A stretch of DNA of 64,000 bases, taken from Candidatus Magasanikiibacteriota bacterium. GTDB taxonomy: Bacteria > Patescibacteriota > Patescibacteriia > Magasanikbacterales > UBA922. The notes beneath the pieces were generated by a model. It did no database searches and was not told the DNA's origin. It was given only the letters and a program-made list of their open reading frames with translations. Location: NCBI GenBank assembly GCA_041665025.1, contig JBAYJP010000002.1, positions 196,820 through 260,819 of the forward strand, given 5' to 3'. The translations under genes and the position numbers were made by a program. Shown here piece by piece: positions 11,032-57,746 of this stretch; the first letter of the stretch is position 1; each line of letters begins with the position of its first letter.

Positions 11032-11123
11032 ACAGATATTACAAAATACTAAAAAGATATTGAAAAGAAATTAAGATATTTACATTGATAAACTGTTTAT
11101 TGTTGACAGACTTATATCGCGTT

Positions 11124-11163
11124 CGTAACTTTATAACTTTACAACTTTCGACTTTATAACTTC
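11124..11163 (+). repeat. Tandem heptad/octad array 'nnAACTTT' (gtaACTTTataACTTTacaACTTTcgACTTTataACTTc); related copy on opposite strand at 17424-17462
   Basis: Direct visual repeat; ~34/38 identity with revcomp of 17424-17462. Confidence 0.6.
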
Positions 11164-14482: not shown

Positions 14483-14569
14483 ATGTACGAAATGCGAAAA
14501 CTTCGAAAGGTGCGAAAATGGCGATTTCGAATTTTTCGTAGATTTCGTGTTTCGTACATACATTAAAAT
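14483..14569. repeat. Palindromic TACGAAA-repeat element (terminal IRs atgtacgaaa...tttcgtacat); family member also at 57659-57734
   Basis: 10-bp perfect terminal inverted repeat plus internal cgaaa/tttcg words; sits in 5' leader of membrane-protein gene. Confidence 0.65.
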
Positions 14570-14597
14570 TGTTATTTTAGAGATAAACTTATTTAAT

Positions 14598-15584
14598 ATG
14601 CATGAACCAACCTATCGTGATGCATTCAAAGCAAGCTGGGAGCTTGCGTGGCATCATAAGTCTTTGTGGATTTTTGGATTGTTTGCCGCATTTTGGGGCC
14701 AACTGGGCATTATGGAATTATTGGCCAAAGTAGTATTTGGTGCAAGCACGCTTCATACGCCATCAGCATTTGTGTATGCAGTAAACTTTTTTACACAATA
14801 TAATTTCGTCGACTTTGCACGTGTGTGGCATCCAGGTTTGGATACTTGGGTATGGACATTATGGCTTGTGGTGATTTTTGTTGGTTTTGCGGTATTTCTT
14901 GCCTTCATTTCTACTGTTTCACAGGGTGCAATTGTACATAGTGCTGAAAAGTACATGGAAAAAAGAAAGAAAAAGTTTGAATCAAGCTCTGTCTCATGGC
15001 ATGAGAGCAGAAAATATTTCGGTAAATTATTTGCTTTGAATATTTTGCGCAAGATTATTGAAATCGCGTTTATTTCGTTTGCTGCATGGGGCATGGCAAA
15101 TGCCTTGATTGAGCCAAATGGATCTGATGTCGCGTTATTCTTGTTTTTGTTTGTACTTGCAGCTTTGATGGGAATGGTATTGTCTTTTATGCTCGTATAT
15201 TCAACAGGCTACGTAGTTATTGAAAAGAAAAAATTTGTTGAATCGCTTCACATGGCATGGAGACTTTTTACGCGCCATTGGCTCGTATCGTTTGAAGTCG
15301 GGTTTTTACTCATGCTTGCCAATCTTGTGCTTGTTGCACTTGTGCTCGTGGGGTTGTATCTCTTATTTTTACCAAGTCTTGTTATGTGGCTTATTGCATT
15401 TGCCATACAGAGTCAAGGTCTATATATTGCAGGTATGTTTCTTGGTTTTGGTTTATTTTTGGTCTATCTCGCCATACTTGGTTCAATGTTTACGGTATTT
15501 GTTACTTCCACCTGGTCATATTTGTTTGCGAAAATGCACAGAGAAGGTGTGGTGAGCAGAGTTGTACATTTTTTTAAACGATAA
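14598..15584 (+). CDS. Polytopic membrane protein of unknown function (ORF extends to 14547 via GTG inside the palindromic element)
   Basis: Multiple hydrophobic helices; ATG 'MHEPTYRD' chosen because upstream part lies within repeat element. Confidence 0.55.
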   Translation: MHEPTYRDAFKASWELAWHHKSLWIFGLFAAFWGQLGIMELLAKVVFGASTLHTPSAFVYAVNFFTQYNFVDFARVWHPGLDTWVWTLWLVVIFVGFAVFLAFISTVSQGAIVHSAEKYMEKRKKKFESSSVSWHESRKYFGKLFALNILRKIIEIAFISFAAWGMANALIEPNGSDVALFLFLFVLAALMGMVLSFMLVYSTGYVVIEKKKFVESLHMAWRLFTRHWLVSFEVGFLLMLANLVLVALVLVGLYLLFLPSLVMWLIAFAIQSQGLYIAGMFLGFGLFLVYLAILGSMFTVFVTSTWSYLFAKMHREGVVSRVVHFFKR

Positions 15585-17423: not shown

Positions 17424-17462
17424 AGTTATAAAGTTGAAAGTTGTAAAGTTATAAAGTTCGAA
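17424..17462 (-). repeat. AACTTTAT heptad array, inverted copy of 11124-11163
   Basis: revcomp = ttcgaactttataactttacaactttcaactttataac. Confidence 0.6.
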
Positions 17463-17473
17463 TTGGCAAATTG

Positions 17474-17508
17474 ATATGTGATGTGTGCTATGTGATATGT
17501 GAAATATG
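17474..17508 (-). repeat. Heptad 'nTAnCAC' repeat array (4 copies) upstream of 17576 gene
   Basis: minus strand reads tttCACatatCACatagCACacatCACatat. Confidence 0.5.
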
Positions 17509-17575
17509 TTGAGATACATAGAGATAAATTGAGATAAAATTTTCGAAAATCAATATTTAATATTTTTAAAACGCT

Positions 17576-18730
17576 ATGGTTAACATAAAACGAAATACGG
17601 GGAATCCCGAACTTATTCCTTCAAACCAGCCAGTGAGATTTTATAAATTTATTGCGCTTAGTTTTTTGATAGTCACGGTTGTGTTGCTCGGGTTTATTGT
17701 GTTTATGTCTGCTAAACGCGCGGAAATTTCCATTGTAACTCGGTCCGAACCTATAAATGTCCAGGCCACGGTAACTATTGACCCTGTGCAAACTAAACAG
17801 ATTGTCTCTGGATTTGTCACAACAACATTGATTGAGGCAGAACAATCTTTTTCTCCGCAAGGAAATAAAAAAGAAGATGGCATTGCAGAAGGTGTGGTGA
17901 CTCTTGTGAACGATGGAGAGACCGAGCAGGCTTTGGTCGCTACTACACGCTTGCTCACGCCAGAAGGGATATTGTTTCGGATGAAAGACCGTGCAGTAGT
18001 ACCAGCCAAAGGGAGTATCGAAGTCTCTGTATATGCCGACCAAGAAGGTGTATCGGGAGATATAGGTCCTTCGACTTTTATCGTCCCCGGACTCAATGAA
18101 GCAAGACAAAAGATCGTCTATGCAAAAAGTACTGTAGCAATGCAAGGTGGTGTGCGCACTATTGGCACAGTGAATGAGGACGATATAGAGAAAGCAGAGA
18201 AGCAGATGCTTGAGGTATTGAAAAAAAATGGATCTGATGAACTAACTGCATTATATCCAAATAATAAAGGATTATTCGAAGTAGTGCAGTATGTATTTGA
18301 AAATGATGCAAAGCTTGGAGAAGAGGCCTCGACTTTTATGGTAAAAGGTAAGGCGACAGTCGTTGGGGTGTTCTATGATGAGAGCCAATTAAAAGCATAC
18401 GCAGGAGAGATATTGCAAAAACAAGTGGTGGATAATAGCGAAGTCTTGGAATCAGTACAGGGTGAACCGACCGTTGTACTCGATTCAAATGATTTGGAAA
18501 GAGGGACAGCTATTCTCGGTGTCACGCATACGGGACTTGTGAATATTGATCCCAATAGTCGAGAACTCCAAAAAATTATGTTTTTTGGCAAGACAGAAGA
18601 CGAAGTAAGACGTTATGTCATGTCGCTTAACCATGTGCAGGGAGTTGAAATGCATTTTCGTCCCATGTGGAATAGGAGCGTACCACATGTAGCGGATCAT
18701 GTAGTTGTCACGATAAAGCAGGTCGAGTAA
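17576..18730 (+). CDS. Hypothetical protein with N-terminal TM anchor (384 aa), downstream of pilB
   Basis: Hydrophobic 'FIALSFLIVTVVLLGFIVFM' then soluble domain; no motif recognised. Confidence 0.5.
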   Translation: MVNIKRNTGNPELIPSNQPVRFYKFIALSFLIVTVVLLGFIVFMSAKRAEISIVTRSEPINVQATVTIDPVQTKQIVSGFVTTTLIEAEQSFSPQGNKKEDGIAEGVVTLVNDGETEQALVATTRLLTPEGILFRMKDRAVVPAKGSIEVSVYADQEGVSGDIGPSTFIVPGLNEARQKIVYAKSTVAMQGGVRTIGTVNEDDIEKAEKQMLEVLKKNGSDELTALYPNNKGLFEVVQYVFENDAKLGEEASTFMVKGKATVVGVFYDESQLKAYAGEILQKQVVDNSEVLESVQGEPTVVLDSNDLERGTAILGVTHTGLVNIDPNSRELQKIMFFGKTEDEVRRYVMSLNHVQGVEMHFRPMWNRSVPHVADHVVVTIKQVE

Positions 18731-18742
18731 ATATACAACATA

Positions 18743-18793
18743 TACGAACTACGAAAGGTACGAAATTACGAAAGTGGAGATTACGAAGACGAA
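18743..18793 (+). repeat. Five direct TACGAAA repeats immediately upstream of thrS promoter -35
   Basis: tacgaac-tacgaaa-ggtacgaaa-ttacgaaa-...-tacgaagacgaa. Confidence 0.6.
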
Positions 18794-18796
18794 TAT

Positions 18797-18825
18797 TTGA
18801 CAGTTTTATAAATAATAGTTAAGAT
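18797..18825 (+). promoter_or_regulatory. Candidate promoter for thrS leader (TTGACA-17-TAAGAT)
   Basis: Consensus -35, 17-nt spacer, weak -10. Confidence 0.4.
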
Positions 18826-18830
18826 GTACC

Positions 18831-18987
18831 TGTCAGCGATTGATGCGTCTACCACACGCATGCCTGTGAAGGTTTCTTTTGAACTAAGCTGACACCAATC
18901 CAACGAGTTAAACTGCTGGGTGGAAACGTCCTAAGGACCCCGGTATATAATTCTAATACTATTAGAGTTATATACCGGGTTTTTTTA
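18831..18987 (+). promoter_or_regulatory. Candidate T-box-like riboswitch leader (Thr ACC specifier hairpin, GGGTGG T-box-like motif, intrinsic terminator) upstream of thrS
   Basis: Hairpin atgcgt-CTACCAC-acgcat (18843-18861) presents ACC; 'ctGGGTGGaaacg' 18916-18928 precedes 21-bp terminator stem 18937-18979 + T7 tract. Confidence 0.4.
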
Positions 18988-19035: not shown

Positions 19036-20814
19036 ATGGAAAATGACAAACTAGAAGCCCTTCGCCATAGTTGTGAGCACGTCCTCACCATGGCCATGCT
19101 TCGCATCTGGGGAAATAAAGTAAAAGCAGCTATGGGCCCGGCAACGGATGATGGATTTTATTTTGATTTTGATTCAGAAATAAAGATATCTGAAGAAGAT
19201 TTTGCAAAGATTGAAAAAGAAATGGCGAAGATTATAAAAGAAAATTTGTCTATTGCCAAAGATGAAATGACTGTAGCAGAAGCCAGAGAATTTTTTAATT
19301 CAAATATATACAAAGGAAATGAATATAAACACGAATGGCTCGATGAAATAGAAGGACGTGGAGAAAAAGTGAGTGTATACTGGATGGGAGAAAAAGGAGG
19401 GGATATCCCACATACGTTTGTAGATATTTGTGCTGGTCCTCACCTAGAATCAACGGGTAAAATCGGCGTATTCAAACTTCTCAAGGTCGCGGGTGCATAC
19501 TGGCATGGAGATGAGAAAAATAAAATGTTGCAACGCATTTATGGTACTGCATTTGGAACCCAGGAAGAACTCGATGAATATGTATCCATGCTTGAAGAAG
19601 CAAAGAAACGAGATCATAAAAAGTTAGGCAAAGAACTTGATTTGTTTACGTTCTCGGAATTAGTTGGTGCTGGTTTACCATTGTGGACGCCCAAAGGTAC
19701 ATTATTGCGAAATACATTGGATAATTTTGTGTGGGAATTGCGCCAGGCAAAAGGGTATCAAAAAGTAACTATTCCTCACATTACCAAAAAGGATTTGTAC
19801 GAAACGAGCGGGCATTGGGCAAAATTTTCAAACGATCTATTCAAAATTCAAACTAGAGAGGGCCATGAATTTGCGATGAAGCCTATGAATTGTCCTCATC
19901 ATACACAGATTTATGCCCACATACCTCGAAGTTATCGCGATCTGCCTCAGCGATACGCAGAGACAACAATGGTATATCGCGATGAACAGACAGGGGAATT
20001 AAATGGATTATCACGAGTACGCTGTATTACTCAAGACGATGCACACGTATTTTGTCGCGAGTCTCAGCTTAGAGATGAATTCTATGCGATTTGGGATATT
20101 ATTGAAACCTTTTATGCGGCGTGTGGTTTCCCTGCATTAAAAATTCGATTGTCTTTGTCTGACCCGGAACACATGGAAAAATATTTGGGAAGTAAAGAAC
20201 AGTGGGATAAAGCAGAAAGTCAGTTGCGACAATTTATTACTGACCGAGGAGCTACATTTTTTGAAGCCGTAGGCGAGGCTGCATTCTATGGTCCAAAGAT
20301 TGATTTTATGGCCAAAGATTCTCTTGGCAGAGAGTGGCAAGTGGCAACAATCCAGGCTGATCGCAGTATGCCACAGAGTTTTGATTTGTTTTGCAACAAT
20401 GAAGAGGGAGAACAGGAACGAATTGTCATGATTCATGCGGCTATTATGGGTTCGATTGAACGATTTCTGTCAGTCTTGATTGAACACCATGGTGGCGCCT
20501 TTCCGGTATGGCTTTCGCCCGTGCAAGTTCATTTTGCTCCGGTATCTTCCAAACATGTCGAGGGTGCAAAAAACATAGCACAAGAATTTTCTGACTTGGG
20601 CATTCGCATCGCACTTGACGATGCGGACGAAACTGTTGGAAACAAAGTACGCAAAGCCGTGGCGCAAAAAGTTCCCTACATCGTAGTTGTTGGTGACAAA
20701 GAAATTGCAGGAGAAGACTTTATGATACGCGTTCGAGGCATTGAAAAACAAGAGAAGATGGCGAAGGATGTGTTTGTTGAAAGAGTGTTGAGTGAAATAA
20801 AAGAGAGAAAATAA
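19036..20814 (+). CDS. thrS: Threonyl-tRNA synthetase lacking N-terminal TGS domain
   Basis: Editing motifs 'RHSCEH' and 'CAGPH', class II catalytic core, anticodon-binding C-terminus; 592 aa. Confidence 0.9.
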   Translation: MENDKLEALRHSCEHVLTMAMLRIWGNKVKAAMGPATDDGFYFDFDSEIKISEEDFAKIEKEMAKIIKENLSIAKDEMTVAEAREFFNSNIYKGNEYKHEWLDEIEGRGEKVSVYWMGEKGGDIPHTFVDICAGPHLESTGKIGVFKLLKVAGAYWHGDEKNKMLQRIYGTAFGTQEELDEYVSMLEEAKKRDHKKLGKELDLFTFSELVGAGLPLWTPKGTLLRNTLDNFVWELRQAKGYQKVTIPHITKKDLYETSGHWAKFSNDLFKIQTREGHEFAMKPMNCPHHTQIYAHIPRSYRDLPQRYAETTMVYRDEQTGELNGLSRVRCITQDDAHVFCRESQLRDEFYAIWDIIETFYAACGFPALKIRLSLSDPEHMEKYLGSKEQWDKAESQLRQFITDRGATFFEAVGEAAFYGPKIDFMAKDSLGREWQVATIQADRSMPQSFDLFCNNEEGEQERIVMIHAAIMGSIERFLSVLIEHHGGAFPVWLSPVQVHFAPVSSKHVEGAKNIAQEFSDLGIRIALDDADETVGNKVRKAVAQKVPYIVVVGDKEIAGEDFMIRVRGIEKQEKMAKDVFVERVLSEIKERK

Positions 20815-37969: not shown

Positions 37970-38074
37970 AGAAAATGTGTTTCTATAGTATACAGAGAAA
38001 TCTTATTGTACCAAAAAATGTATAAAAATTATAGCCCAGTAGGGTGTGAGGTGTGATATGTAATATGTATTTTG

Positions 38075-38160
38075 TCAATATGTTTTATTTACGACGCAGG
38101 TGAGAGAAAAGTAAATTCGCATTTACTTTTCCGAGCCGAGGAGTAACTACAGGATAATAT
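38075..38160 (-). repeat. ~95-nt repeat element copy B (see 8838-8937); GNRA hairpin gtaaat-GCGA-atttac with compensatory pair change
   Basis: Hand alignment ~90% identity to copy A. Confidence 0.7.
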
Positions 38161-38551: not shown

Positions 38552-39184
38552 TTATTTCCGTCTTTTTTTAATTTCTTTTAATACGTTTTCTAGTTTGATT
38601 CCTTTTTGTACTAGCAACGTGAATAGATGATAAAGTACGTCGACACTTTCTTCAGCAGTTCGTTTTTTAGTTTCTTCTCTAACTGCTCGGCAGACTTCTT
38701 CAGCTTCTTCCATTATCTTTTCTTCAATTTTGGGTAGTCCTTTGGAAAATAGGTAAGTGGTATAGGATTTTTTAGGCATATTTTTTTTGCGATCCTGAAT
38801 CACACTAAATAATTCAGCGATAAAGCCAATGTCAGGTTGGGATTTTTTGTTTATCCCTTTTGGTTGTGGTATGTCAAAACATGATTCAGTAAGAAGATGA
38901 CAGGTCGGTCCTGCCGGTTTTACTTTTACGAGTATAGTGTCTGCGTCACAATCTATTTTGATATCTTTTACAAATAAATAGTTTTTGCTTTCTTCCCCTT
39001 TCATCCAAAGACATTTTTTTGTCCTGCTATAAAACCAGACTTTTTGTGTGTGTATGGTTTTTCTAAATGCATCTTCATTCATAAAACCCAACATAAGAAC
39101 ACGATTTGTGGAGATGTCCTGAATAATAGCTGGCGCAAGCCCACTCATTTTTTTGAAATTAATTTTTTTGAGTATTGTCTTCAT
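38552..39184 (-). CDS. hisIE: Bifunctional phosphoribosyl-AMP cyclohydrolase / phosphoribosyl-ATP pyrophosphatase
   Basis: HisI 'LAPAIIQD...FYSRTKKCLWMKGEES...DCDADTILVKVKPAGPTCHLLTESCF'; HisE-like C-terminus; ATGA overlap with upstream gene. Confidence 0.85.
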   Translation of the reverse strand: MKTILKKINFKKMSGLAPAIIQDISTNRVLMLGFMNEDAFRKTIHTQKVWFYSRTKKCLWMKGEESKNYLFVKDIKIDCDADTILVKVKPAGPTCHLLTESCFDIPQPKGINKKSQPDIGFIAELFSVIQDRKKNMPKKSYTTYLFSKGLPKIEEKIMEEAEEVCRAVREETKKRTAEESVDVLYHLFTLLVQKGIKLENVLKEIKKRRK

Positions 39185-40653
39185 AGCCGTATGGGCAGGT
39201 TATTGTTCTTTAGATATCGTTTCAATTTTTTGATTTTGATTTTTTCATAATGAAAAACCGTTGCTGCCAATACTGCATCTACGTTGGTTTGTTTCAATAC
39301 ATCGAGGAAATCTTTTTTTGTTCCAGCACCGCTCGAAGCAATTACCGGTATACGTACTGACCGAGAAATTTTGTTGAGAAGTTCTATGTCAAATCCTTTT
39401 TTTGTACCGTCTCTATCCAAACTATTCACGAGTAATTCGCCCGCACCTAGTTTTTCCATTTTTTTAGCAAATGTAATTGCATTTATGTCAGTCTTTTGTT
39501 TACCTCCTCGTATATATATCATCCATATTTTCCCAGTTTTTTTTGCATCAATAGAAATTACTAAACATTGCGAGCCGTATTTTTGTGAAATACTTTTTAC
39601 TAATGCTGGATTAAGAACTGCAGCAGTACATAGTGAAACCTTATCTGCTCCAGCGTTTAATAAACATTTTACGTCATTAATATCTGCTATCCCACCCCCA
39701 ACGGTAAAAGGTATGTTTATATTTTTCGCGATTTTTTCTACCAGTTCACGGAGAGTTTTTCTTTTTTCAGATGTCGCCGTTATATCCAAAAATACGAGTT
39801 CATCCGCCCCGCTTTGGCTATACAATTGAGCTAATTTCACTGCATCGCCTGCATCTGTCAGTTTTGTGAAGTGGATGCCTTTGACTACCTTTCCATCTTT
39901 TACATCGAGACAGGGGATTATTCTCTTTGTCAGATTATTTGGAGAAAAAATGGGCAATATTTTTTCTAGGCTTAATTTTCCTTCATACAAAGTTTTTCCC
40001 AAGACTACGCCATAGACTCCAAGTTTCTCCAGTTTTTTTATATCACCAATTGTGGTAATTCCTCCGGCGGCGATTATCTTAAAGCCATATTTCAGTATCT
40101 TTTTTATTAATGGTAAGTTTGGTCCGGTAAGTGTTCCATCTTTTTTAATATCAGTAACTAAAATATAGTTAACGCCGATCTGTTTTAATACATTCAGGAA
40201 CTTGTTCAGGGATACGTTGTTTGTTTTCTGCCATCCTTTGGACATAAGTACATTATTTTTGACATCGACAGCTATAATTATTCTTTCAGTGCCATATTTT
40301 TTTATTAGTTTAGGTATCAGATTATTTTTTTCAATAGCTGAAGTACCAATAATGACTTTGTCTGTACCCGAATCTAGCAGTTGGACTGCATCTTTGTATG
40401 TTCTAATGCCGCCGCCTATTTGGACAGGCAGACCGATTTTTTTTGTCATATTTATTATGAGTTTTTTGTTTACGGGGCGACCCATTTGAGCGCCTTCTAA
40501 ATCAATAATATGGAGGCATGAAGCACCAGCATTTTTGAATTCCATTGCTTTGCTCATAGGATTGCGGGTATATGTTTTAACACAAGAATAGTCGCCTTGT
40601 GTAAGACGAACGCATGTTCCCTTATAAATATCAATCGCAGGAATAATTATCAT
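39181..40653 (-). CDS. hisAF: Fused HisA (ProFAR isomerase) - HisF (IGP synthase cyclase subunit) protein
   Basis: N-half 'MIIIPAIDIYKGTCVRLTQGDY...QIGGGIRT'; C-half 'RIIPCLDVKDGKVVKGIHF...ELVFLDITAT...VGGGIADI'; single uninterrupted 490-aa ORF. Confidence 0.8.
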   Translation of the reverse strand: MIIIPAIDIYKGTCVRLTQGDYSCVKTYTRNPMSKAMEFKNAGASCLHIIDLEGAQMGRPVNKKLIINMTKKIGLPVQIGGGIRTYKDAVQLLDSGTDKVIIGTSAIEKNNLIPKLIKKYGTERIIIAVDVKNNVLMSKGWQKTNNVSLNKFLNVLKQIGVNYILVTDIKKDGTLTGPNLPLIKKILKYGFKIIAAGGITTIGDIKKLEKLGVYGVVLGKTLYEGKLSLEKILPIFSPNNLTKRIIPCLDVKDGKVVKGIHFTKLTDAGDAVKLAQLYSQSGADELVFLDITATSEKRKTLRELVEKIAKNINIPFTVGGGIADINDVKCLLNAGADKVSLCTAAVLNPALVKSISQKYGSQCLVISIDAKKTGKIWMIYIRGGKQKTDINAITFAKKMEKLGAGELLVNSLDRDGTKKGFDIELLNKISRSVRIPVIASSGAGTKKDFLDVLKQTNVDAVLAATVFHYEKIKIKKLKRYLKNNNLPIRL

Positions 40654-41234
40654 AGTACGCAAAAATTATGTAATAACCTCAAACCAGCTTTTCCCGATTT
40701 TTCCGGATGAAATTGGACCGCGTAGAAATTATTTTTTTGTATAATTGAGGGAAAACGTATTCCATAATCAGTTAGTCCAAGAATATCTTGTTCAGGTGAT
40801 TGAAAATAGTATGAATGCACAAAATAAAAATACTCATTATTTTTCAAATCATTTAGTAATGGCGACTTTGTTTTTATTTGTACACTATTCCAGCCTATAT
40901 GCGGAACTTTTAGTCTGCCGGCAAATTTATTTACTTTTCCGGGTATTATTGAGAGACACTCTGTTTCATCTTCCTCAGAATAATCAGCCAATAGCTGCAT
41001 GCCAAGGCAAATACCAAGAAAAGGGACATTGATATTTTTAATAATTGTATTAATGCTTCGTCTTTTCAATTCTCTCATTGCACTTCCGGCTCTGCCCTGT
41101 CCCGGAAAAATTATTTTTTTTGCATTCTTAATTTTGTTAGGGTCAGAAGTTACAGAGCATTCAAACCCAAGATGCCCTATTGCATTTTTTAGAGAGCCAA
41201 TATTGCTGGCATTGTAATCGATAATGGTAATCAT
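40650..41234 (-). CDS. hisH: Imidazole glycerol phosphate synthase, glutamine amidotransferase subunit
   Basis: 'GICLGMQLL', 'HIGWN', 'FYFVHSY'. Confidence 0.9.
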   Translation of the reverse strand: MITIIDYNASNIGSLKNAIGHLGFECSVTSDPNKIKNAKKIIFPGQGRAGSAMRELKRRSINTIIKNINVPFLGICLGMQLLADYSEEDETECLSIIPGKVNKFAGRLKVPHIGWNSVQIKTKSPLLNDLKNNEYFYFVHSYYFQSPEQDILGLTDYGIRFPSIIQKNNFYAVQFHPEKSGKAGLRLLHNFCVL

Positions 41235-41821
41235 AGTGTTCCTTTGGTTGTTGGTAATATATTCTTCATGCGCGGGTCGTTTTCTGCTGCCATTTTAAGA
41301 GTTCGGGCAAAAGCTTTAAAAATAGCCTCTACCATGTGGTGTTCATTGCGTCCGTATTTTATATTGATATGGATATTGGCTTGTAGGTTGTCTGCAACTG
41401 AGCGGAAAAAATCTTCAAACAGTTCAGTAGACATATCACCAATTTTTTCTCGTCTAAATTTAACATTCCAAACCACATAAGATCTTCCACCAATATCAAT
41501 CGCGACCTCGGCTAACGTTTCATCCATAGGCAATAAAAATCCATAACGTTGGATCCCTTTTTTGTTGCCCAGTGCTTTTTTTATGGCCTGTCCTAGACAG
41601 ATTCCAATATCTTCAACTGTGTGGTGTTCATCGACGTCCAAATCTCCTTTGCTGATTATGTTTATGTCGATTAATGACTGCTTTGATAATAATTCAAGCA
41701 TGTGGTCGAAAAAACCAATGCCCGTTTGTATATTATATTTTCCTTTGCCATCCAAATTTACTGATAGGGAGATATCTGTTTCACTTGTCTCCCGTTTTAT
41801 TTTAGATTTTCGTTGTTTCAT
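41231..41821 (-). CDS. hisB: Imidazoleglycerol-phosphate dehydratase
   Basis: 'GIGFFDHMLELLSKQSLIDINI', 'DVDEHHTVEDIGICLGQA'. Confidence 0.9.
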   Translation of the reverse strand: MKQRKSKIKRETSETDISLSVNLDGKGKYNIQTGIGFFDHMLELLSKQSLIDINIISKGDLDVDEHHTVEDIGICLGQAIKKALGNKKGIQRYGFLLPMDETLAEVAIDIGGRSYVVWNVKFRREKIGDMSTELFEDFFRSVADNLQANIHINIKYGRNEHHMVEAIFKAFARTLKMAAENDPRMKNILPTTKGTL

Positions 41822-41826
41822 ATGGG

Positions 41827-42336
41827 TTATAGTTTGAAATTCTCAAGCGTGAACTTCTGGTTCGTCTCTGTCTGTAGGAATCTGAGCCCTAGATTTTTTG
41901 CCAGCAATCTATCACTCTCTCTGTCTCCACAAACAAATGAAAGTTCTTTGTCTACGTCACGATTTCTTAAAAAATTATCAAATAATTTTGTCTTTGGTTT
42001 TCTACAATTGCAATTATCATCGGGCATGTGAGGACATAGAAGTAATGTTTCAAATGATACTCCATTCTGTTTGAATATCTGTACTAGTTGTTTTTGTACC
42101 GTGTCAAAACATTCTTGCGGGTATATGGTTGTGCCGAGTCCGTCCTGGTTGCTTGTCATTATTAATGTATATTGAGTGTCAATAATTTTGTGTAATCCGT
42201 CAATGACGCCGGGAAGAATACGGAGTTTTTTAATGGCATCAATTTGGTAGGGGATATCACCTCGTTTTGTTTCCTTAGGCGTTGGTTCGTAAATCAATGT
42301 TCCATCGCGATCTATGAATGCATATTTAGTTTTCAT
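41827..42336 (-). CDS. hisN: Histidinol-phosphatase, HAD-IIIA (HisB-N type)
   Basis: 'YAFIDRDGTLI', 'CNCRKPK' as in E. coli HisB N-domain. Confidence 0.75.
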   Translation of the reverse strand: MKTKYAFIDRDGTLIYEPTPKETKRGDIPYQIDAIKKLRILPGVIDGLHKIIDTQYTLIMTSNQDGLGTTIYPQECFDTVQKQLVQIFKQNGVSFETLLLCPHMPDDNCNCRKPKTKLFDNFLRNRDVDKELSFVCGDRESDRLLAKNLGLRFLQTETNQKFTLENFKL

Positions 42337-42346
42337 ACCACTGATT

Positions 42347-43411
42347 TTACTGATTAATTAGACTTTTGTACGTTTCAATAAATTGTTTAGTCTGACCCAC
42401 GGTGCCCATGGAAACTCTCACTGTATTATCAAACCCATATCCCTTGCGTGGGCGGATAAGAAATCCTCGTTCTCTTAGGTTGTTAAATATCTGAGCAGGA
42501 TTTTTTGGTCTAAACAATATAAAATGTGCTGAGCTCGGGTAAAACATTACCCCGTTTTCTCTAAAGAATTGTTCAAGCATTGGTTTGGATACTTTCATAA
42601 CTTGCTGTATGTAGATTTTTAGTGGTTGTAGGTTTTGTAATACTGCTCTTGCCGTATATAACCCAGCCATATTTATGTCATATGGTCCTCGTACCTTCGC
42701 CATCTCCCTAATCAATAGTACTGGCGCAATTACATAGCCAATACGCAGTGCAGCGAGTCCAAATGCTTTGGAAAATGTCCTGGTAATAACCAAATTTGGA
42801 TATTTTTCTATAAGAGGGATGGCGGTTATTCCGGAATATTCTGCATAAGCTTCGTCCACGTATACCAAGCCATTTTTCAATTTTTTTAATATACGTTCAA
42901 TATCATCCGGGGACACTTGTGTGCCTGTTGGGTTATTTGGGTTACAGACCACGACAAGTTTTGTTTTATCTGTTATGGCATTTAGCACATCTTGAAGCGG
43001 GAATGAACCATTGTCCGTATTATACGTTGGAGTTATGATCTTGTTTCCACATAGCTCGGCGCATTGATAGAACATAGCAAAACTTGGTGAAGGTATGATG
43101 ACTTCGTCGCCTGGTTTGGTGAATGTTTTAAATATAATATCTATACCTTGATCAGAGCCATTGATTATCATAATATTTTTTGGTCGCGTACTTGCATATT
43201 GGGCAATTCGTTCGTTTATGTCCCCATATTCCGGATAGCGTTGGAATACATTTTCTTGCGTAAGTTTTTCAAGAGCCTTTTTTACTACATCACCATAAGG
43301 TGTTGTCCGTTCATTGAAATCCAATAAACAACCATCAAAATAACGCCTGCCTTCAATTGGCGGATTATATGGATTCATAACTTGTATGTTTTGGTTTGCC
43401 AAGTTTTTCAT
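42347..43411 (-). CDS. hisC: Histidinol-phosphate aminotransferase
   Basis: Class II aminotransferase, 'TRTFSKAFGLAALRIGY' PLP-Lys region, operon context. Confidence 0.85.
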   Translation of the reverse strand: MKNLANQNIQVMNPYNPPIEGRRYFDGCLLDFNERTTPYGDVVKKALEKLTQENVFQRYPEYGDINERIAQYASTRPKNIMIINGSDQGIDIIFKTFTKPGDEVIIPSPSFAMFYQCAELCGNKIITPTYNTDNGSFPLQDVLNAITDKTKLVVVCNPNNPTGTQVSPDDIERILKKLKNGLVYVDEAYAEYSGITAIPLIEKYPNLVITRTFSKAFGLAALRIGYVIAPVLLIREMAKVRGPYDINMAGLYTARAVLQNLQPLKIYIQQVMKVSKPMLEQFFRENGVMFYPSSAHFILFRPKNPAQIFNNLRERGFLIRPRKGYGFDNTVRVSMGTVGQTKQFIETYKSLINQ

Positions 43412-44547
43412 ATTTGTTTCAAGAACCTTGTTTCAATACTATCTGCATGGGCATTGAGTCCTTCGGCCCGTGCAATTGTAGTAATAGTATTTTTTATCTT
43501 TTTTAATCCTTGTTTAGTTACTCTCTGTACTTCTATTTTTTTGCCAAAGTCTTCCACACTTAAAGCTCCATATGTTTTTGACCATCCGGCAGTTGGCAAT
43601 GTATGATTTGGTCCCGTGACATAGTCGCCAGCTGAGACTGGAGAATAATTTCCCAAAAATATTGATCCAGCATTTATTATTTTTGATAATATGTGTTTTT
43701 CATTTTTTGCCATAATTTCTAAGTGTTCGGGCGCAATCTCATTGACCAGTTTTATCGCTTCAGTCATGTTTGGAACTAATTTAACTTTTCCAATTTTTAT
43801 TTTTTGTGCAAGTTTTTTATCCCACGTAATGAGAATTGCAACAGAATCGGGCCCATGCTCCAGTTGAGATGCTAGATCTTTTTCAATAAATTTAGGGTTT
43901 GCAGTTTCATCGGCAAGGATAGCAATCTCTGACGGACCTGCAGGCATATCAATCGCAACCGTGTTGCTTACTTGTATTTTTGCCTCAGTCACATACTTGT
44001 TTCCTGGTCCAAAAATTTTGTAAACCTGCGGAATAGTTTTTGTTCCAAAAGCCATCGCTGCAATAGCCTGTGCTCCCCCGACTTGGTATATATTTTTTAT
44101 TCCGACTATATCAGCTGCCACAAGTGTTACTGCGGCAATGGGCGGAGGAGAACACATAATAATATCGCTGCAGCCGGCAAGCTTTGCAGGGATGCCGAGC
44201 ATTAAGACCGTTGAAGGATATTTTGCTCGTCCCCCCGGGATGTATAATCCGACTTTTTCTATTGGTCTAAATTCACGCCAGCAGGTAATCCCCGGACTTG
44301 TTTGGATTGGACGTTCGCGAACAGATAAGATATTTTTATTGAATTTAGTAATATTTTTTATGGCTACTTTAAGTGATCTCATTATTTCAGTATCAACTTT
44401 TTTGTATGCATCTTGAATTTGTGTTTGAGAAATTTTAAGAGTATCAATTTTTGCATTATTAAATTTGAGCGCATATTCTTCTAATGCCGTGTCACCATTT
44501 TTTTTGACGTTTTCAATTATCTGTTTGACGGTCTCTTGTGTTGTCAT
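43408..44547 (-). CDS. hisD: Histidinol dehydrogenase
   Basis: 'GGAQAIAAMAFGT', 'ILADETANP', 'DYVTGPNHTLPT' motifs. Confidence 0.85.
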   Translation of the reverse strand: MTTQETVKQIIENVKKNGDTALEEYALKFNNAKIDTLKISQTQIQDAYKKVDTEIMRSLKVAIKNITKFNKNILSVRERPIQTSPGITCWREFRPIEKVGLYIPGGRAKYPSTVLMLGIPAKLAGCSDIIMCSPPPIAAVTLVAADIVGIKNIYQVGGAQAIAAMAFGTKTIPQVYKIFGPGNKYVTEAKIQVSNTVAIDMPAGPSEIAILADETANPKFIEKDLASQLEHGPDSVAILITWDKKLAQKIKIGKVKLVPNMTEAIKLVNEIAPEHLEIMAKNEKHILSKIINAGSIFLGNYSPVSAGDYVTGPNHTLPTAGWSKTYGALSVEDFGKKIEVQRVTKQGLKKIKNTITTIARAEGLNAHADSIETRFLKQI

Positions 44548-45160
44548 ATTTTTTTATTAATTCTAGGAATTCTTTCTTTTTTTCATTTGCATAGGGGCTT
44601 TCTATGAGTATGGCTTGGGAATCCATAACTTTGTCTATGATAATAAGTCCATTATCTCTAAGAGTTTTGCCGGTCTGGGTTATATCACATACCGCATCGG
44701 CCATACCAAGGGACGGAGCTATTTCCACTGATCCGGAGAGTTCTACTATGTTGGCATAAATGCCTTGTTGTTTTAGAAACCTTTTAAAGATATTAGGGTA
44801 GGATGTTGCAATAGTTTTATTTTGTAATTGTCGTACCGATGTTATATCACTGTTTTGTGGTACCGCGATTACCAATGTACAGTCGCTGAATGTAAGATTT
44901 TTTGAAATGCACGTGGTTTCCGCCCGTTCTTCCAGAACATCTCTTCCAATAATTCCAAAATCAACTAGATTTTTGTTGATATATGTCGGAATATCATCAT
45001 CACGCAGAAAGATTATTTGATTTCCTGTCTTGCGACATGTGGTAGATAGTTTTTTATCTTCCATATCAAAATCAAAACCAAGGTTTCTAAGAAATAATAA
45101 GCTTTCATCACGCAGATGACCTTTTTTCTGTATAGCAATTTTTAGATTTTGTTGTTGCAT
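44513..45160 (-). CDS. hisG: ATP phosphoribosyltransferase, short form (HisGS)
   Basis: 215 aa, 'LKIAIQKKGHL', 'DFGIIGRDVLEE', lacks C-terminal regulatory domain. Confidence 0.8.
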   Translation of the reverse strand: MQQQNLKIAIQKKGHLRDESLLFLRNLGFDFDMEDKKLSTTCRKTGNQIIFLRDDDIPTYINKNLVDFGIIGRDVLEERAETTCISKNLTFSDCTLVIAVPQNSDITSVRQLQNKTIATSYPNIFKRFLKQQGIYANIVELSGSVEIAPSLGMADAVCDITQTGKTLRDNGLIIIDKVMDSQAILIESPYANEKKKEFLELIKKYDNTRDRQTDN

Positions 45161-45164
45161 ATGA

Positions 45165-45581
45165 TTATGTGATCATGCAAGAAATTGAATAAATATTTTG
45201 TCCCTTCTTTTGAATTTTTGTGATTGTAAATGTGCCAATCTCCTTTGTATTTTTTACGTGCGGGCCTGCACACGCCAATCTATTGAATCCTTCAATTTCA
45301 TATATAGATATGTTTGATACAGATTCGGGAATTAGGCTTACATCTGCTATTTTTTCAGCCCCAATTCTGGGCAGAATATAATTGATTACGTTATACCCTT
45401 TTTCTATCTCTGCATTTACTTCATCTTGAAGTTTTTGTGCTAAGTTACGGATATCAGTTATACATTCATAGACAACTCGGAACGAACCTTTTTTAAATTC
45501 CAGTGCCTTGCTTGTTATTTCATATTGATTTTTAAGTACGGTGTAGAGAATATGCTCGGCAGTATGAAGACGTGATTTCAT
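45165..45581 (-). CDS. AlaX-S-like tRNA-editing domain protein (aaRS second additional domain)
   Basis: 'HTAEHIL' and 'CAGPHV' zinc motifs. Confidence 0.6.
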   Translation of the reverse strand: MKSRLHTAEHILYTVLKNQYEITSKALEFKKGSFRVVYECITDIRNLAQKLQDEVNAEIEKGYNVINYILPRIGAEKIADVSLIPESVSNISIYEIEGFNRLACAGPHVKNTKEIGTFTITKIQKKGQNIYSISCMIT

Positions 45582-45610
45582 AAGATAAGATTAGGAGAAA
45601 TCTCCATGGG

Positions 45611-45683
45611 GGTGCCCAATGGGAGTTGAACCCATATTCTCAGTACCACAAACTGATGTGCTGGCCGTTGCACCATGAGCACC
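45611..45683 (-). tRNA. tRNA-His (anticodon GTG) with encoded G-1
   Basis: Manual fold: G-1 + GTGCTCA acceptor (one G-U), D-stem GTGC/GCAC, anticodon stem TCAGT/ACTGA loop TTGTGGT, T-arm ATGGG-TTCAACT-CCCAT, discriminator C. Confidence 0.75.
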
Positions 45684-49060: not shown

Positions 49061-49130
49061 ATAGCACTTAACACATTTGAAAAATTTAAATAATTGTTAC
49101 GTGATATGTGTTACGTGCTACGTGATACAG
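49045..49130. repeat. Inverted arrays of 'nTAnCAC' heptads in divergent promoter region
   Basis: plus gtaaCACatagCACttaaCAC; minus tatCACgtagCACgtaaCACatatCACgtaaca. Confidence 0.6.
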
Positions 49131-54035: not shown

Positions 54036-54106
54036 AACCTGACTAATTTTTAATTTCGAATTTTGAATTTTAAAACAATATCACAATATCCAATTTATCC
54101 GGCGTA

Positions 54107-57174: not shown

Positions 57175-57658
57175 TTATTTGATATTAATCTTTTCCACCC
57201 GAGGCGGACCAGCCTTGGGCTGGCAATCTTTGTAATCTTACAATCTTCCAACTCTTAGAAGAGTATAATCAATGGTTTTATCTGAGCTTATAAAGGGTAA
57301 AAGTATATACGTGTTCGGTATGAATTGTGGATAAAGTTGTGGCAAAATATGGCTTATTTGGTAGTGGACTGTTTATTTTAGGCTTAAATTAGATAAAAAG
57401 TAGGGCTTCTTGACAGATAGTTATCCACTTGTTCTCTATTTGACAAGGGGCCTTTTTTCAGGTATCCTAATGAGGCTATTGAATTCTTCACGAGAAATGG
57501 GTGAAAAATAGCTCAAATAAGCTTAAAACTGGTTTTCTCGTTCCTTCGGTTTCGTTTGGGGCGGAAATACCCGGCACCACATGCGCGCAATTTCTCTCGA
57601 CAAATAGCTTTGCAATACAAAAACCTTTCAAAAAAGGGATTTTTTGTTATCTATAGTC

Positions 57659-57734
57659 ATGTACGAAATACGAAAAATACGAAAGTACGAAAAATATTAT
57701 TTCGGATATTTCGCAGCTTTCGTATTTCGAACAT
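57659..57734. repeat. Palindromic TACGAAA-repeat element (IRs atgtacgaaatacgaaa / tttcgtatttcgaacat) 12 nt upstream of rpoB ATG
   Basis: 17-bp terminal inverted repeat (1 mismatch); same terminal words as 14483-14569. Confidence 0.65.
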
Positions 57735-57746
57735 AATCATTTTTTT

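What the first reader, a model, noticed from the sequence alone, without database searches (positions are those of the whole stretch)
18743..18987. Possible T-box-like leader upstream of thrS, preceded by five direct TACGAAA repeats
Between a TTGACA promoter and thrS there is a 6-bp hairpin presenting CTACCAC in its loop (Thr codon ACC followed by A). There is a stem-I-like pairing (ctgtcagc...gctgacac), a GGGTGGaAACG segment resembling the T-box consensus (AGGGTGGnACCGCG), and a 21-bp terminator stem with U7. In Firmicutes thrS is a classic T-box-regulated gene. The architecture is not canonical (the specifier hairpin is a separate small stem-loop), so this may be a divergent T-box or another attenuator. 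The TACGAAA x5 array abutting the -35 suggests an additional protein-binding site.
Basis: partly seen in the sequence, partly recalled or inferred. Interest (0 to 1): 0.5.

Follow-up and report, generated by a model that had tools for sequence, protein, structure and literature searches.

The report
Unusual T-box tRNA sensor before thrS
The RNA leader in front of the threonyl-tRNA synthetase gene of this ultra-small (Patescibacteria) bacterium is very probably a tRNA-sensing T-box switch, but its tRNA-decoding half is built in a way not described before: a small cloverleaf-like junction that shows the threonine codon in a hairpin loop.

Summary
The window comes from a Patescibacteria (CPR) contig.

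Between a TTGACA/TAAGAT promoter and thrS lies a leader of about 155 nt. Its 3' half is a textbook T-box discriminator:
- helix A1, a 7-nt bulge UGGAAAC and helix A2;
- the 3' strand of A1 is also the 5' strand of a 19-bp terminator followed by U7.

Its 5' half is not a canonical Stem I. It is a four-way junction of closing helix P1 plus three hairpins. The first hairpin has a 7-nt loop, CUACCAC, that presents ACC-A.

I found 17 related leaders upstream of thrS in other CPR contigs. P1, the codon hairpin, A1 and A2 all covary, while ACCA, GAUUG, CUAA and UGGA stay fixed.

Rfam's T-box model misses the window even at E<=10. It gives a significant sub-threshold hit (38 bits, threshold 93) to a relative, through the discriminator only.

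Best reading (0.85): a tRNA-Thr-responsive transcriptional T-box of a new structural variant. It has no elbow platform, Stem II or pseudoknot, and in this window no Stem III.

The TACGAAA array is real but is not a conserved thrS operator. It is one of many short-period arrays in this genome's intergenic DNA.

The parts
18743..18794 (+). Direct TACGAA(A/C/G) repeats x5 plus one degenerate copy, abutting the -35 box. Not part of the RNA element.
   Evidence: Exact matches and TRF array. Not conserved in relatives. One of 23 short-period arrays in the window.
18797..18825 (+). Sigma-70-type promoter: TTGACA, 17 nt, TAAGAT. The predicted start lies at about 18831-18833, at the 5' strand of P1.
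   Evidence: A TTGAC(A/T) box is visible upstream of P1 in the 15 of 17 related leaders whose upstream DNA is available.
18831..18837 (+). P1 5' strand (UGUCAGC), closing helix of the decoding domain.
   Evidence: MFE fold. Covariation.
18838..18842 (+). Junction strand GAUUG (AUUG invariant, G present in at least 90% of leaders).
   Evidence: Alignment A2.
18843..18861 (+). Specifier hairpin hp1: 6-bp stem and 7-nt loop CUACCAC. Thr codon ACC at 18851-18853, followed by A at 18854.
   Evidence: 99% of cells paired and 6 of 6 pairs with compensatory changes. ACCA is invariant in 17 aligned leaders and in one further leader found by the model.
18862..18873 (+). Hairpin hp2 (GCCU-GUGA-AGGU). Structure is conserved but sequence is not.
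18874..18883 (+). Hairpin hp3 (UUC-UUUU-GAA). Structure is conserved but sequence is not.
18884..18887 (+). Junction strand CUAA (C-AA invariant).
18888..18894 (+). P1 3' strand (GCUGACA).
18895..18914 (+). Linker. Contains CAAUC (18896-18900), complementary to GAUUG, and the purine string GAG (18905-07) of the T-box discriminator. There is no Stem III here.
   Evidence: The RAG and RRRxG-Stem III-AA motifs are described in PMC11297988 and PMC7583486.
18915..18944 (+). Antiterminator: A1 18915-20/18939-44, 7-nt T-box bulge UGGAAAC 18921-27, A2 GUCC-UAA-GGAC 18928-38.
   Evidence: -10.7 kcal/mol. Covariation of A1 and A2.
18939..18986 (+). Intrinsic terminator: 19-bp stem, 3-nt loop, U7. Its 5' strand is the 3' strand of A1.
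   Evidence: -29.3 kcal/mol. Equivalent terminators occur in relatives.
19036..20814 (+). thrS, the regulated gene (592 aa, no N-terminal TGS domain).
   Evidence: Pfam tRNA_SAD, tRNA-synt_2b and HGTP_anticodon. Best homologues are Patescibacteria ThrRS.

Best explanation
This is a transcription-attenuating T-box riboswitch that senses uncharged tRNA-Thr and controls thrS.

Inferred sequence of events:
1. Transcription starts a few bases after the TAAGAT -10 box.
2. The first ~64 nt fold into a four-way junction: P1 plus three hairpins.
3. The first hairpin presents the Thr codon ACC, followed by A, in an anticodon-loop-sized 7-nt loop. This codon pairs with the GGU anticodon of tRNA-Thr.
4. 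About 70 nt downstream, the bulge UGGA of the antiterminator pairs with the free 3' end (predicted UCCA) of the same tRNA, but only if the tRNA carries no amino acid.
5. That pairing stabilises the weak antiterminator (-10.7 kcal/mol) against the much stronger terminator (-29.3 kcal/mol) that uses the same CCCGG strand, so RNA polymerase reads into thrS.
6. When tRNA-Thr is mostly charged, the terminator forms and transcription stops at the U7 tract.

Shown here: the structures, their mutual exclusivity, their covariation, the invariance of ACCA and UGGA, the link to thrS, and the homology of the discriminator half to the T-box family.

Inferred, not shown: actual tRNA binding, charge sensing, and the roles of hp2, hp3 and the invariant junction strands GAUUG and CUAA. 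These junction strands may replace the Stem II purine string or K-turn that buttress the codon-anticodon helix in known T-boxes.
For: - The antiterminator has exactly the canonical T-box anatomy (A1, 7-nt 5' bulge starting UGG, A2). Its 3' strand is the terminator's 5' strand.
- In 17 leaders, A1 positions 1-5 pair in 17 of 17, with G-C to A-U and U-A to C-G swaps. A2 base pairs form in 16-17 of 17, with swaps. The bulge is UGGAACC in 15 and UGGAAAC in 2.
- P1 and the specifier hairpin covary strongly while loop positions 3-6 (ACCA) never change. RNAalifold predicts both helices without any input from me.
- Of the loop's possible triplets, only ACC (Thr) and CCA are invariant. Position 2 of the loop is U or C and position 7 is A, C or G.
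- A covariance model of the decoding domain finds one copy in the 64-kb window (62 bits; next best 13 bits). In DNA it was not trained on, it found a new member upstream of thrS of a 76%-identical ThrRS (56.5 bits, E 2e-12). That member is followed by GGGUGGAACC and a terminator.
- RF00230 gives 107.6 bits to a Bacillus-group thrS leader used as a positive control. It gives significant sub-threshold hits to CPR thrS leaders, including class member L103 (38 bits, E 3e-7 on 301 nt). That alignment runs through AGUG-Stem III-AAAUCGGGUGGAACC and the antiterminator.
- The promoter sits immediately upstream of P1 in the window and in relatives, so there is no room for a hidden canonical Stem I.
- thrS is a classic T-box target. 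The Firmicute thrS leaders fetched here also carry UGGA in four of five cases.
Against: - RF00230 does not hit the window's own leader at E<=10.
- The leader lacks the Stem I distal platform, the AG bulge, the specifier internal loop with S-turn, Stem II, the IIA/B pseudoknot and Stem III. The review PMC7583486 says transcriptional T-boxes generally need the long Stem I platform.
- The bulge is UGGAAAC rather than UGGNACC.
- No member with a different codon upstream of a different gene was available, so codon-gene covariation is untested.
- No tRNA-Thr gene was found in any DNA held, so the predicted U73 discriminator is untested.
- There are no expression or binding data.
Confidence: 0.85

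Rival explanations
1. A self-contained or otherwise-triggered attenuator. The hairpin loop ACCA mimics a tRNA 3' end (NCCA) and pairs in cis with the UGG of the bulge. The switch would then respond to something other than tRNA anticodon pairing, such as a protein, temperature or folding kinetics.
For: Loop CCA (18852-54) is complementary to UGG (18921-23). In the window, CCAC is complementary to GUGG (sequence). ACCA invariance cannot separate 'Thr codon plus purine' from 'NCCA mimic'.
Against: - Every ACC-A Thr specifier contains CCA by construction, including the canonical-looking CPR thrS leaders with ACCA in an internal loop.
- The fourth position would be an A-A mismatch with UGGA.
- The discriminator half is homologous to tRNA-binding T-boxes.
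Confidence: 0.05
2. No sensing at all. The hairpin plus U7 is simply a terminator, of a small independent RNA made from the TTGACA promoter or a partial constitutive attenuator, and the upstream structures are stabilising elements.
For: The terminator is far more stable than the antiterminator. Rfam does not recognise the window's leader.
Against: The weak alternative helix A1/A2 with its UGGA bulge is conserved by compensatory changes in 17 leaders whose terminators differ completely in sequence. That is not expected unless the alternative fold is used. The element always sits upstream of thrS, or of a short operon ending in thrS.
Confidence: 0.05
3. Autoregulation by ThrRS protein binding a tRNA-like operator, as in E. 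coli thrS, with the hairpin acting as an anticodon-arm mimic.
For: hp1 has the size of an anticodon arm: 6-bp stem, 7-nt loop, pyrimidine-U/C-NNN-A-A.
Against: - The loop shows the codon ACC, not a Thr anticodon (NGU). From established knowledge, ThrRS reads G35 and U36.
- The hairpin lies 175 nt upstream of the ATG with a terminator in between, so it cannot compete with ribosome binding.
- This reading does not explain the UGGA-bulged antiterminator.
Confidence: 0.03
4. Leader-peptide (ribosome-mediated) attenuation.
For: Two short ORFs start at ATG 18844 and 18860 (read from the sequence).
Against: They encode MRLPHACL and MPVKVSFELS, with no Thr codons. They overlap stems that covary at the RNA level and are not conserved as peptides.
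Confidence: 0.01

Closest known systems
Class I (transcriptional) T-box leaders, Rfam RF00230, e.g. Bacillus thrS/thrZ and tyrS
   Same: - Regulated gene (thrS) and Thr ACC specifier followed by a purine.
- T-box sequence GGGUGGNA.
- Antiterminator of A1, 7-nt bulge and A2, competing with an intrinsic terminator.
- RAG purine string 5' of the discriminator. Relatives also keep the RRRxG-Stem III-AA arrangement.
- UGGA bulge, as in Firmicute thrS leaders.
   Different: - No long Stem I, K-turn, internal specifier loop with S-turn, AG bulge or distal-loop platform for the tRNA elbow.
- No Stem II, F-box or pseudoknot, and no Stem III in the window.
- The codon sits in a terminal hairpin loop inside a four-way junction.
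- The model scores below E = 10 on the window and 38 bits (threshold 93) on a relative.
Ultrashort-Stem-I (class II, translational) ileS T-boxes of Actinobacteria
   Same: The specifier is presented in the terminal loop of a short hairpin, with no elbow-binding platform (descriptions in bioRxiv 10.1101/2023.02.28.530422 and PMC7583486).
   Different: - Those are reported only for ileS/tRNA-Ile, and they act by sequestering the ribosome-binding site.
[quoted passage not shown]
- This one controls thrS, ends in an intrinsic terminator, and has two short variable hairpins and a closing helix instead of Stem II and the pseudoknot.
glyQS T-box (minimal transcriptional T-box)
   Same: Transcriptional, and lacks Stem II and the pseudoknot.
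   Different: glyQS keeps the full-length Stem I with the elbow platform and keeps Stem III. This leader has neither.
E. coli thrS operator (tRNA-Thr anticodon-arm mimic bound by ThrRS)
   Same: Same regulated gene and an anticodon-arm-sized hairpin.
   Different: Here the loop carries the codon, not the anticodon. Control is by termination, not by translation initiation. The sensor is inferred to be tRNA, not the enzyme.

Membership tests
T-box riboswitch (functional family) | Antiterminator of helix A1, a 7-nt 5' bulge beginning UGGN, and helix A2 | tested here: met
   A1 18915-20/18939-44, bulge UGGAAAC, A2 18928-38. A1 pairs in 17 of 17 leaders at five positions, with compensatory changes at three. 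A2 pairs in 16-17 of 17.
T-box riboswitch (functional family) | Mutually exclusive expression platform (terminator or sequestrator) sharing a strand with the antiterminator | tested here: met
   CCCGGU at 18939-44 is both the 3' strand of A1 and the start of the 19-bp terminator plus U7. Energies are -10.7 against -29.3 kcal/mol. The same arrangement is seen in relatives.
T-box riboswitch (functional family) | Specifier codon matching the amino acid of the regulated gene, followed by a purine | tested here: met
   ACC-A in the hp1 loop, invariant in 18 leaders, all upstream of thrS. Codon switching with gene identity could not be tested.
T-box riboswitch (functional family) | N of UGGN complementary to the discriminator base of the cognate tRNA | not testable with these tools
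   UGGA predicts U73. No tRNA-Thr gene is present in the window, in 20 kb of extra flank of the same contig, or in 160 thrS loci.
T-box riboswitch (functional family) | 14-nt T-box sequence AGGGUGGNACCGCG | tested here: inconclusive
   The window has UGGGUGGAAACGUC, which is 10 of 14 counting N. Relatives have CGGGUGGAACCGUC.
T-box riboswitch (functional family) | Binding of uncharged tRNA and tRNA-dependent antitermination | not testable with these tools
   Needs an experiment.
Rfam RF00230 / class I architecture | Score at or above the gathering threshold (93 bits) | tested here: not met
   No hit at gathering or at E<=10 on 451 nt or 165 nt. Relative L103 scores 38 bits. The positive control L038 scores 107.6 bits.
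Rfam RF00230 / class I architecture | Long Stem I with K-turn, internal specifier loop, AG bulge and distal loop (tRNA-elbow platform) | tested here: not met
   The promoter abuts P1. The decoding domain is P1 plus three hairpins of 63-78 nt, with no conserved loop sequences in hp2 or hp3. In Rfam's alignment of L103, 67 Stem I positions are replaced by 10 nt.
Rfam RF00230 / class I architecture | Stem III flanked by conserved purines (RRRxG-Stem III-AA) | tested here: not met
   In the window, GAGUUAAAC runs directly into A1 with no hairpin. The motif with a Stem III is present in relatives L083, L103 and L084.
Ultrashort-Stem-I translational T-box (class II) | Specifier in the terminal loop of a short Stem I | tested here: met
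   6-bp stem with a 7-nt loop carrying ACC.
Ultrashort-Stem-I translational T-box (class II) | Stem II with S-turn and IIA/B pseudoknot, a sequestrator of the ribosome-binding site, and ileS as target | tested here: not met
   hp2 and hp3 are 3-9-bp hairpins without conserved internal loops. The expression platform is an intrinsic terminator 50 nt upstream of the ATG. The gene is thrS.

The most novel reading that the evidence does not exclude
This is a previously undescribed structural class of T-box riboswitch, widespread in Patescibacteria. The whole tRNA-decoding module (Stem I with elbow platform, Stem II, pseudoknot) is replaced by a ~65-nt four-way junction that offers the codon in an anticodon-like hairpin loop. 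The element nevertheless works at the level of transcription, and in a subset it also lacks Stem III. It would be the smallest natural transcriptional T-box. It would also be a counter-example to the view that transcriptional T-boxes need the elbow contact.
Probability: 0.55. Interest if true: 0.7.

Novelty: new variant of a known kind. Interest (0 to 1): 0.6.

Why it matters
**For T-box mechanism.** T-boxes are the model for RNA that recognises another folded RNA. Current structural work holds that fast, transcription-coupled tRNA capture needs the long Stem I platform that stacks on the tRNA elbow, and that short-Stem-I forms depend on Stem II and the pseudoknot. A natural transcriptional T-box of about 155 nt with none of these modules would test that view. 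It would also offer a much smaller scaffold for structural study and for engineering tRNA-responsive switches.

**For Patescibacteria.** Standard annotation (Rfam and TBDB-style pipelines) is blind to this form. Regulation of aminoacyl-tRNA synthetases in Patescibacteria, whose gene regulation is almost unstudied, is therefore being missed.

Tried and rejected
- **Rfam scans.** I ran gathering and permissive scans on the window and on 34 loci. There was no family hit on the window's leader except chance snoRNA and miRNA matches.
- **Search for members with another codon.**
  - A pattern scan of viral contigs gave only chance matches; none of the 120 passed a hairpin check.
  - A scan of both strands of all thrS loci for further T-box motifs found them only upstream of thrS.
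  - No class I synthetase genes lie in the locus flanks.
  - There is no other synthetase among the ORFs tested here (the large ORFs, the thrS neighbours and the his region). An extra 20 kb of the source contig holds only a PoxA-like tRNA-synt_2 gene beside efp and no T-box.
- **Search for tRNA-Thr, to test UGGA against U73.** None was found in the window, the 160 loci or the flanks.
- **Alignment limits.** MAFFT could not align hp2 and hp3, so they are supported only by per-sequence folds and partly by RNAalifold.
- **Rejected readings.** Leader-peptide attenuation and an E. coli-type ThrRS operator; see the rival explanations.
- **Literature.**
  - The full text of Sherwood et al. 2015 and Battaglia et al. 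2019 is not held. The description of the ultrashort class is therefore taken from two later papers.
  - Searches combining T-box with candidate phyla radiation, Patescibacteria or Saccharibacteria returned nothing. The search for a four-way-junction T-box returned four papers, none describing such a variant. The six papers that mention both riboswitch and candidate phyla radiation were not about T-boxes.

Full report
**Context**

The window is part of a 440-kb ENA metagenome contig (ERZ27249449:k141_138385). The ORF at 19036-20814 is a 592-aa threonyl-tRNA synthetase with Pfam domains tRNA_SAD, tRNA-synt_2b and HGTP_anticodon. Its closest relatives (up to 90% identity) are Patescibacteria/CPR proteins labelled Magasanikbacteria, Peregrinibacteria, Uhrbacteria and so on. 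Upstream lie a type IV pilus ATPase and a 384-aa ORF without a Pfam match that ends at 18730. The same gene order recurs in a relative.

**The observation**

Their coordinates are:

| Feature | Coordinates |
|---|---|
| TTGACA, 17 nt, TAAGAT promoter | 18797-18825 |
| Outer helix UGUCAGC/GCUGACA | 18831-37 / 18888-94 |
| 6-bp hairpin | 18843-48 / 18856-61 |
| Loop CUACCAC | 18849-55 |
| GGGUGGAAACG | 18918-28 |
| Terminator | 18939-79, then U7 |

- The terminator has 19 bp, not 21.
- There are five exact TACGAA copies plus a degenerate sixth between 18743 and 18794.

**Structure of the leader in the window**

The minimum-free-energy fold (z = -6.0) gives a four-way junction. Helix P1 closes three hairpins:
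- hp1, carrying the ACC loop;
- hp2, GCCU-GUGA-AGGU;
- hp3, UUC-UUUU-GAA.

The junction strands are GAUUG (5') and CUAA (3').

Downstream I found by inspection, and then scored, a textbook T-box antiterminator:
- A1 is GCUGGG/CCCGGU.
- The 5' bulge is the 7-nt UGGAAAC.
- A2 is GUCC-UAA-GGAC.

The 3' strand of A1 is the first six bases of the terminator, so the two folds exclude each other. The antiterminator scores -10.7 kcal/mol and the terminator -29.3 kcal/mol. This asymmetry is usual for T-boxes, where bound tRNA tips the balance.

**Comparative evidence**

I fetched 160 thrS loci.
- Seventeen sequences, including the window, share the same architecture upstream of thrS.
- On a MAFFT alignment of the decoding domain (A2), ACCA in the loop, AUUG, and C-AA of CUAA are invariant.
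- P1 and hp1 show 88% of cells paired, and all 14 pairs have compensatory changes. The covariation score is 0.94, against 0.33 for shuffles (0 of 500 reach it) and at most 0.18 for slid partners.
- RNAalifold predicts both helices on its own.
- hp2 and hp3 are present in nearly every member but with unrelated sequences and lengths.
- In the antiterminator, A1 pairs in 17 of 17 at five positions, with G-C/A-U and U-A/C-G exchanges. The four basal A2 pairs form in 16-17 of 17. The bulge is UGGAACC in 15 leaders and UGGAAAC in 2.
- Each member has its own terminator of unrelated sequence starting at the 3' strand of A1.
- In the 15 leaders with enough upstream DNA, a TTGAC(A/T) box is visible upstream of P1, so the RNA starts at P1 and no canonical Stem I can lie further upstream.

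A covariance model of the decoding domain gave these results:
- One hit in the window (62 bits; next best 13 bits).
- Only the 17 training sequences among 96 sources.
- One new, untrained member in a contig encoding a 76%-identical ThrRS (56.5 bits, E 2e-12). It is followed by GAGUUAAAC, GGGUGGAACC and a terminator.

Among 67 metagenomic thrS loci with at least 280 nt of upstream sequence, 21 pass a strict T-box filter, and 13 of those 21 are of this form. Members accompany ThrRS proteins only 44-49% identical to the window's, one of them labelled Saccharibacteria. The form is therefore widespread in the group.

**Relation to the T-box family**

- Rfam RF00230 finds nothing in the window at gathering or at E<=10 on 451 or 165 nt.
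- As a positive control it scores 107.6 bits on a Halalkalibacterium thrS leader.
- It gives sub-threshold but significant hits to CPR thrS leaders of a more canonical look (55, 39 and 35 bits).
- It also hits class member L103 (38 bits; E 7e-5, or 3e-7 on 301 nt).

The L103 alignment shows that the score comes from the discriminator half: AGUG, Stem III, AAAUCGGGUGGAACC and the antiterminator. The model's Stem I is deleted there, with 67 positions replaced by 10 nt.

The discriminator is therefore homologous to known T-boxes, and the decoding half is not recognisable. The window and about half of the class also lack Stem III. The conserved purine string (GAG, 18905-07) runs straight into A1. 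The motifs are described in PMC7583486 and PMC11297988.

**Mechanism**

The simplest reading is the standard T-box mechanism. The GGU anticodon of tRNA-Thr pairs with ACC in the hp1 loop. The uncharged 3' end pairs with UGGA. This stabilises the antiterminator and allows read-through into thrS.

Support for ACC as the specifier:
- Of the triplets in the loop, only ACC and CCA are invariant.
- The gene is thrS.
- The following base is the usual purine.
- The Firmicute thrS leaders fetched here also use UGGA in four of five cases.

What differs is how the codon is presented. It sits in a 7-nt terminal loop shaped like an anticodon loop, as in the actinobacterial 'ultrashort' ileS T-boxes. Those are described as translational, ileS-only and dependent on Stem II and the pseudoknot (bioRxiv 10.1101/2023.02.28.530422; PMC7583486; PMC7913692). 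Here the platform is an intrinsic terminator, and two short variable hairpins plus a closing helix replace Stem II and the pseudoknot.

The review PMC7583486 states that transcriptional T-boxes generally need the long Stem I with the elbow-binding motif. This class would be an exception. The invariant GAUUG and CUAA strands are the obvious candidates for a tertiary contact that buttresses the codon-anticodon helix, but that is an inference.

A CAAUY element complementary to GAUUG sits right after P1 in 6 of 17 members, including the window (18896-18900). Counting anywhere in the linker, 7 of 17 have it, against 1.0 expected, and 0 of 2000 shuffles reach 7. Its role is unexplained.

**Rivals**

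- Cis pairing of the loop's CCA with the UGG bulge cannot be excluded without non-Thr members, but any ACC-A specifier contains CCA.
- A plain terminator or small RNA does not explain why the weak bulged alternative helix is conserved by compensatory changes.
- An E. coli-type ThrRS operator is excluded. The loop shows the codon, not the anticodon, and lies 175 nt upstream of the ATG, behind a terminator.
- The short ORFs in the leader carry no Thr codons.

**The TACGAAA array**

The array is real, but it is not a conserved part of thrS control.
- The closest relative (ThrRS 90% identical, same promoter and leader) has AGCAC x4 at that position.
- Two others have ATAAAGTT x4-5, another has GAGATA repeats, and several have nothing.
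- The window holds 23 arrays of period 6-11 with at least 2.8 copies, against 0-3 in shuffles. Fourteen of them lie in the 9.4% of the window that is intergenic.
- CGAAA-type arrays recur upstream of rpoB (57662-57735) and at 14486-14556. At both of those sites, direct copies are followed by inverted ones.

This looks like a genome-wide property of promoter-proximal DNA in this lineage. Its function is unknown.

**Novelty**

- No family in Rfam 15 matches the decoding domain.
- The held literature has no paper combining T-box with candidate phyla radiation, Patescibacteria or Saccharibacteria. Four papers combine T-box with 'four-way junction', none describing such a variant. The six that combine riboswitch with candidate phyla radiation are not about T-boxes.
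- TBDB was built from the RF00230 model and an Actinobacteria-trained class II model (PMC7778990), so it would miss this form.

I rate it a new variant of a known kind. The regulatory logic and the discriminator are those of a T-box; the decoding module is new.

**Limits**

- There are no members with other codons.
- No tRNA-Thr sequence was available.
- There is no experimental evidence.
- The literature search covers open-access papers only.

Noticed in passing
window 11034-11162, 14493-14556, 17424-17538, 18750-18774, 38052-38083, 49098-49128, 54045-54071, 57234-57257, 57661-57696: Intergenic DNA is packed with short tandem-like arrays (period 6-11 bp, 3-5 copies, different unit in each place). 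There are 23 arrays against 0-3 in shuffles, and 14 of the 23 lie in the 9.4% of the window that is non-coding. Several sit just upstream of -35 boxes. Related contigs have arrays with other units at the same positions.
   Followed up: partly
window 57662-57735 and 14486-14556: CGAAA-type units (TACGAAA, TGCGAAAA) occur as about four direct copies followed by about four inverted copies (TTTCG...). This forms long imperfect palindromes upstream of rpoB (ATG at 57747) and upstream of the 345-aa ORF 14547-15584 (GTG start). The unit is the same as in the array upstream of the thrS promoter, which has only direct copies.
   Followed up: partly
window 38552-45683, minus strand: A complete histidine biosynthesis operon: hisG, hisD, hisC, a phosphatase, the IGP dehydratase, hisH, a fused hisA/hisF and hisIE. 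It is preceded by a free-standing tRNA_SAD (AlaX/ThrRS-editing-like) protein at 45165-45581, with a tRNA-His(GUG) gene only 25 nt upstream of that ORF. Amino-acid biosynthesis operons are unusual in Patescibacteria (my own knowledge). No T-box motif is present there.
   Followed up: partly
L084 223-1212; L088 637-1182; L281 8803-9898: In some relatives the same leader and terminator are followed by an extra gene before thrS. This is a 329-aa ORF of unknown function in L084, and one or two GNAT acetyltransferases in L088 and L281. The T-box would then control a small operon.
   Followed up: partly
L117 154-230; L120 1303-1360; L083 1329-1378; L281 8574-8650: Several members carry 40-75-nt insertions in the apical part of antiterminator helix A2. 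This is reminiscent of the lineage-specific 'stem Sa' insertion described for staphylococcal glyS T-boxes (PMC9177973).
   Followed up: no
L016, L086, L097, L102, L107, L109, L113, L115, L133 (upstream of thrS): A second type of CPR thrS leader has a more canonical long Stem I (AGAGA..., GGUACCAC specifier in an internal loop) and often no Stem III. All score far below Rfam's T-box threshold (35-55 bits against 93), so standard annotation also misses them.
   Followed up: partly
window 18896-18900: CAAUC, complementary to the invariant junction strand GAUUG (18838-42), recurs at the same position in 6 of 17 leaders. A pseudoknot with P1 looks sterically tight, so it may mark an alternative conformer.
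   Followed up: partly
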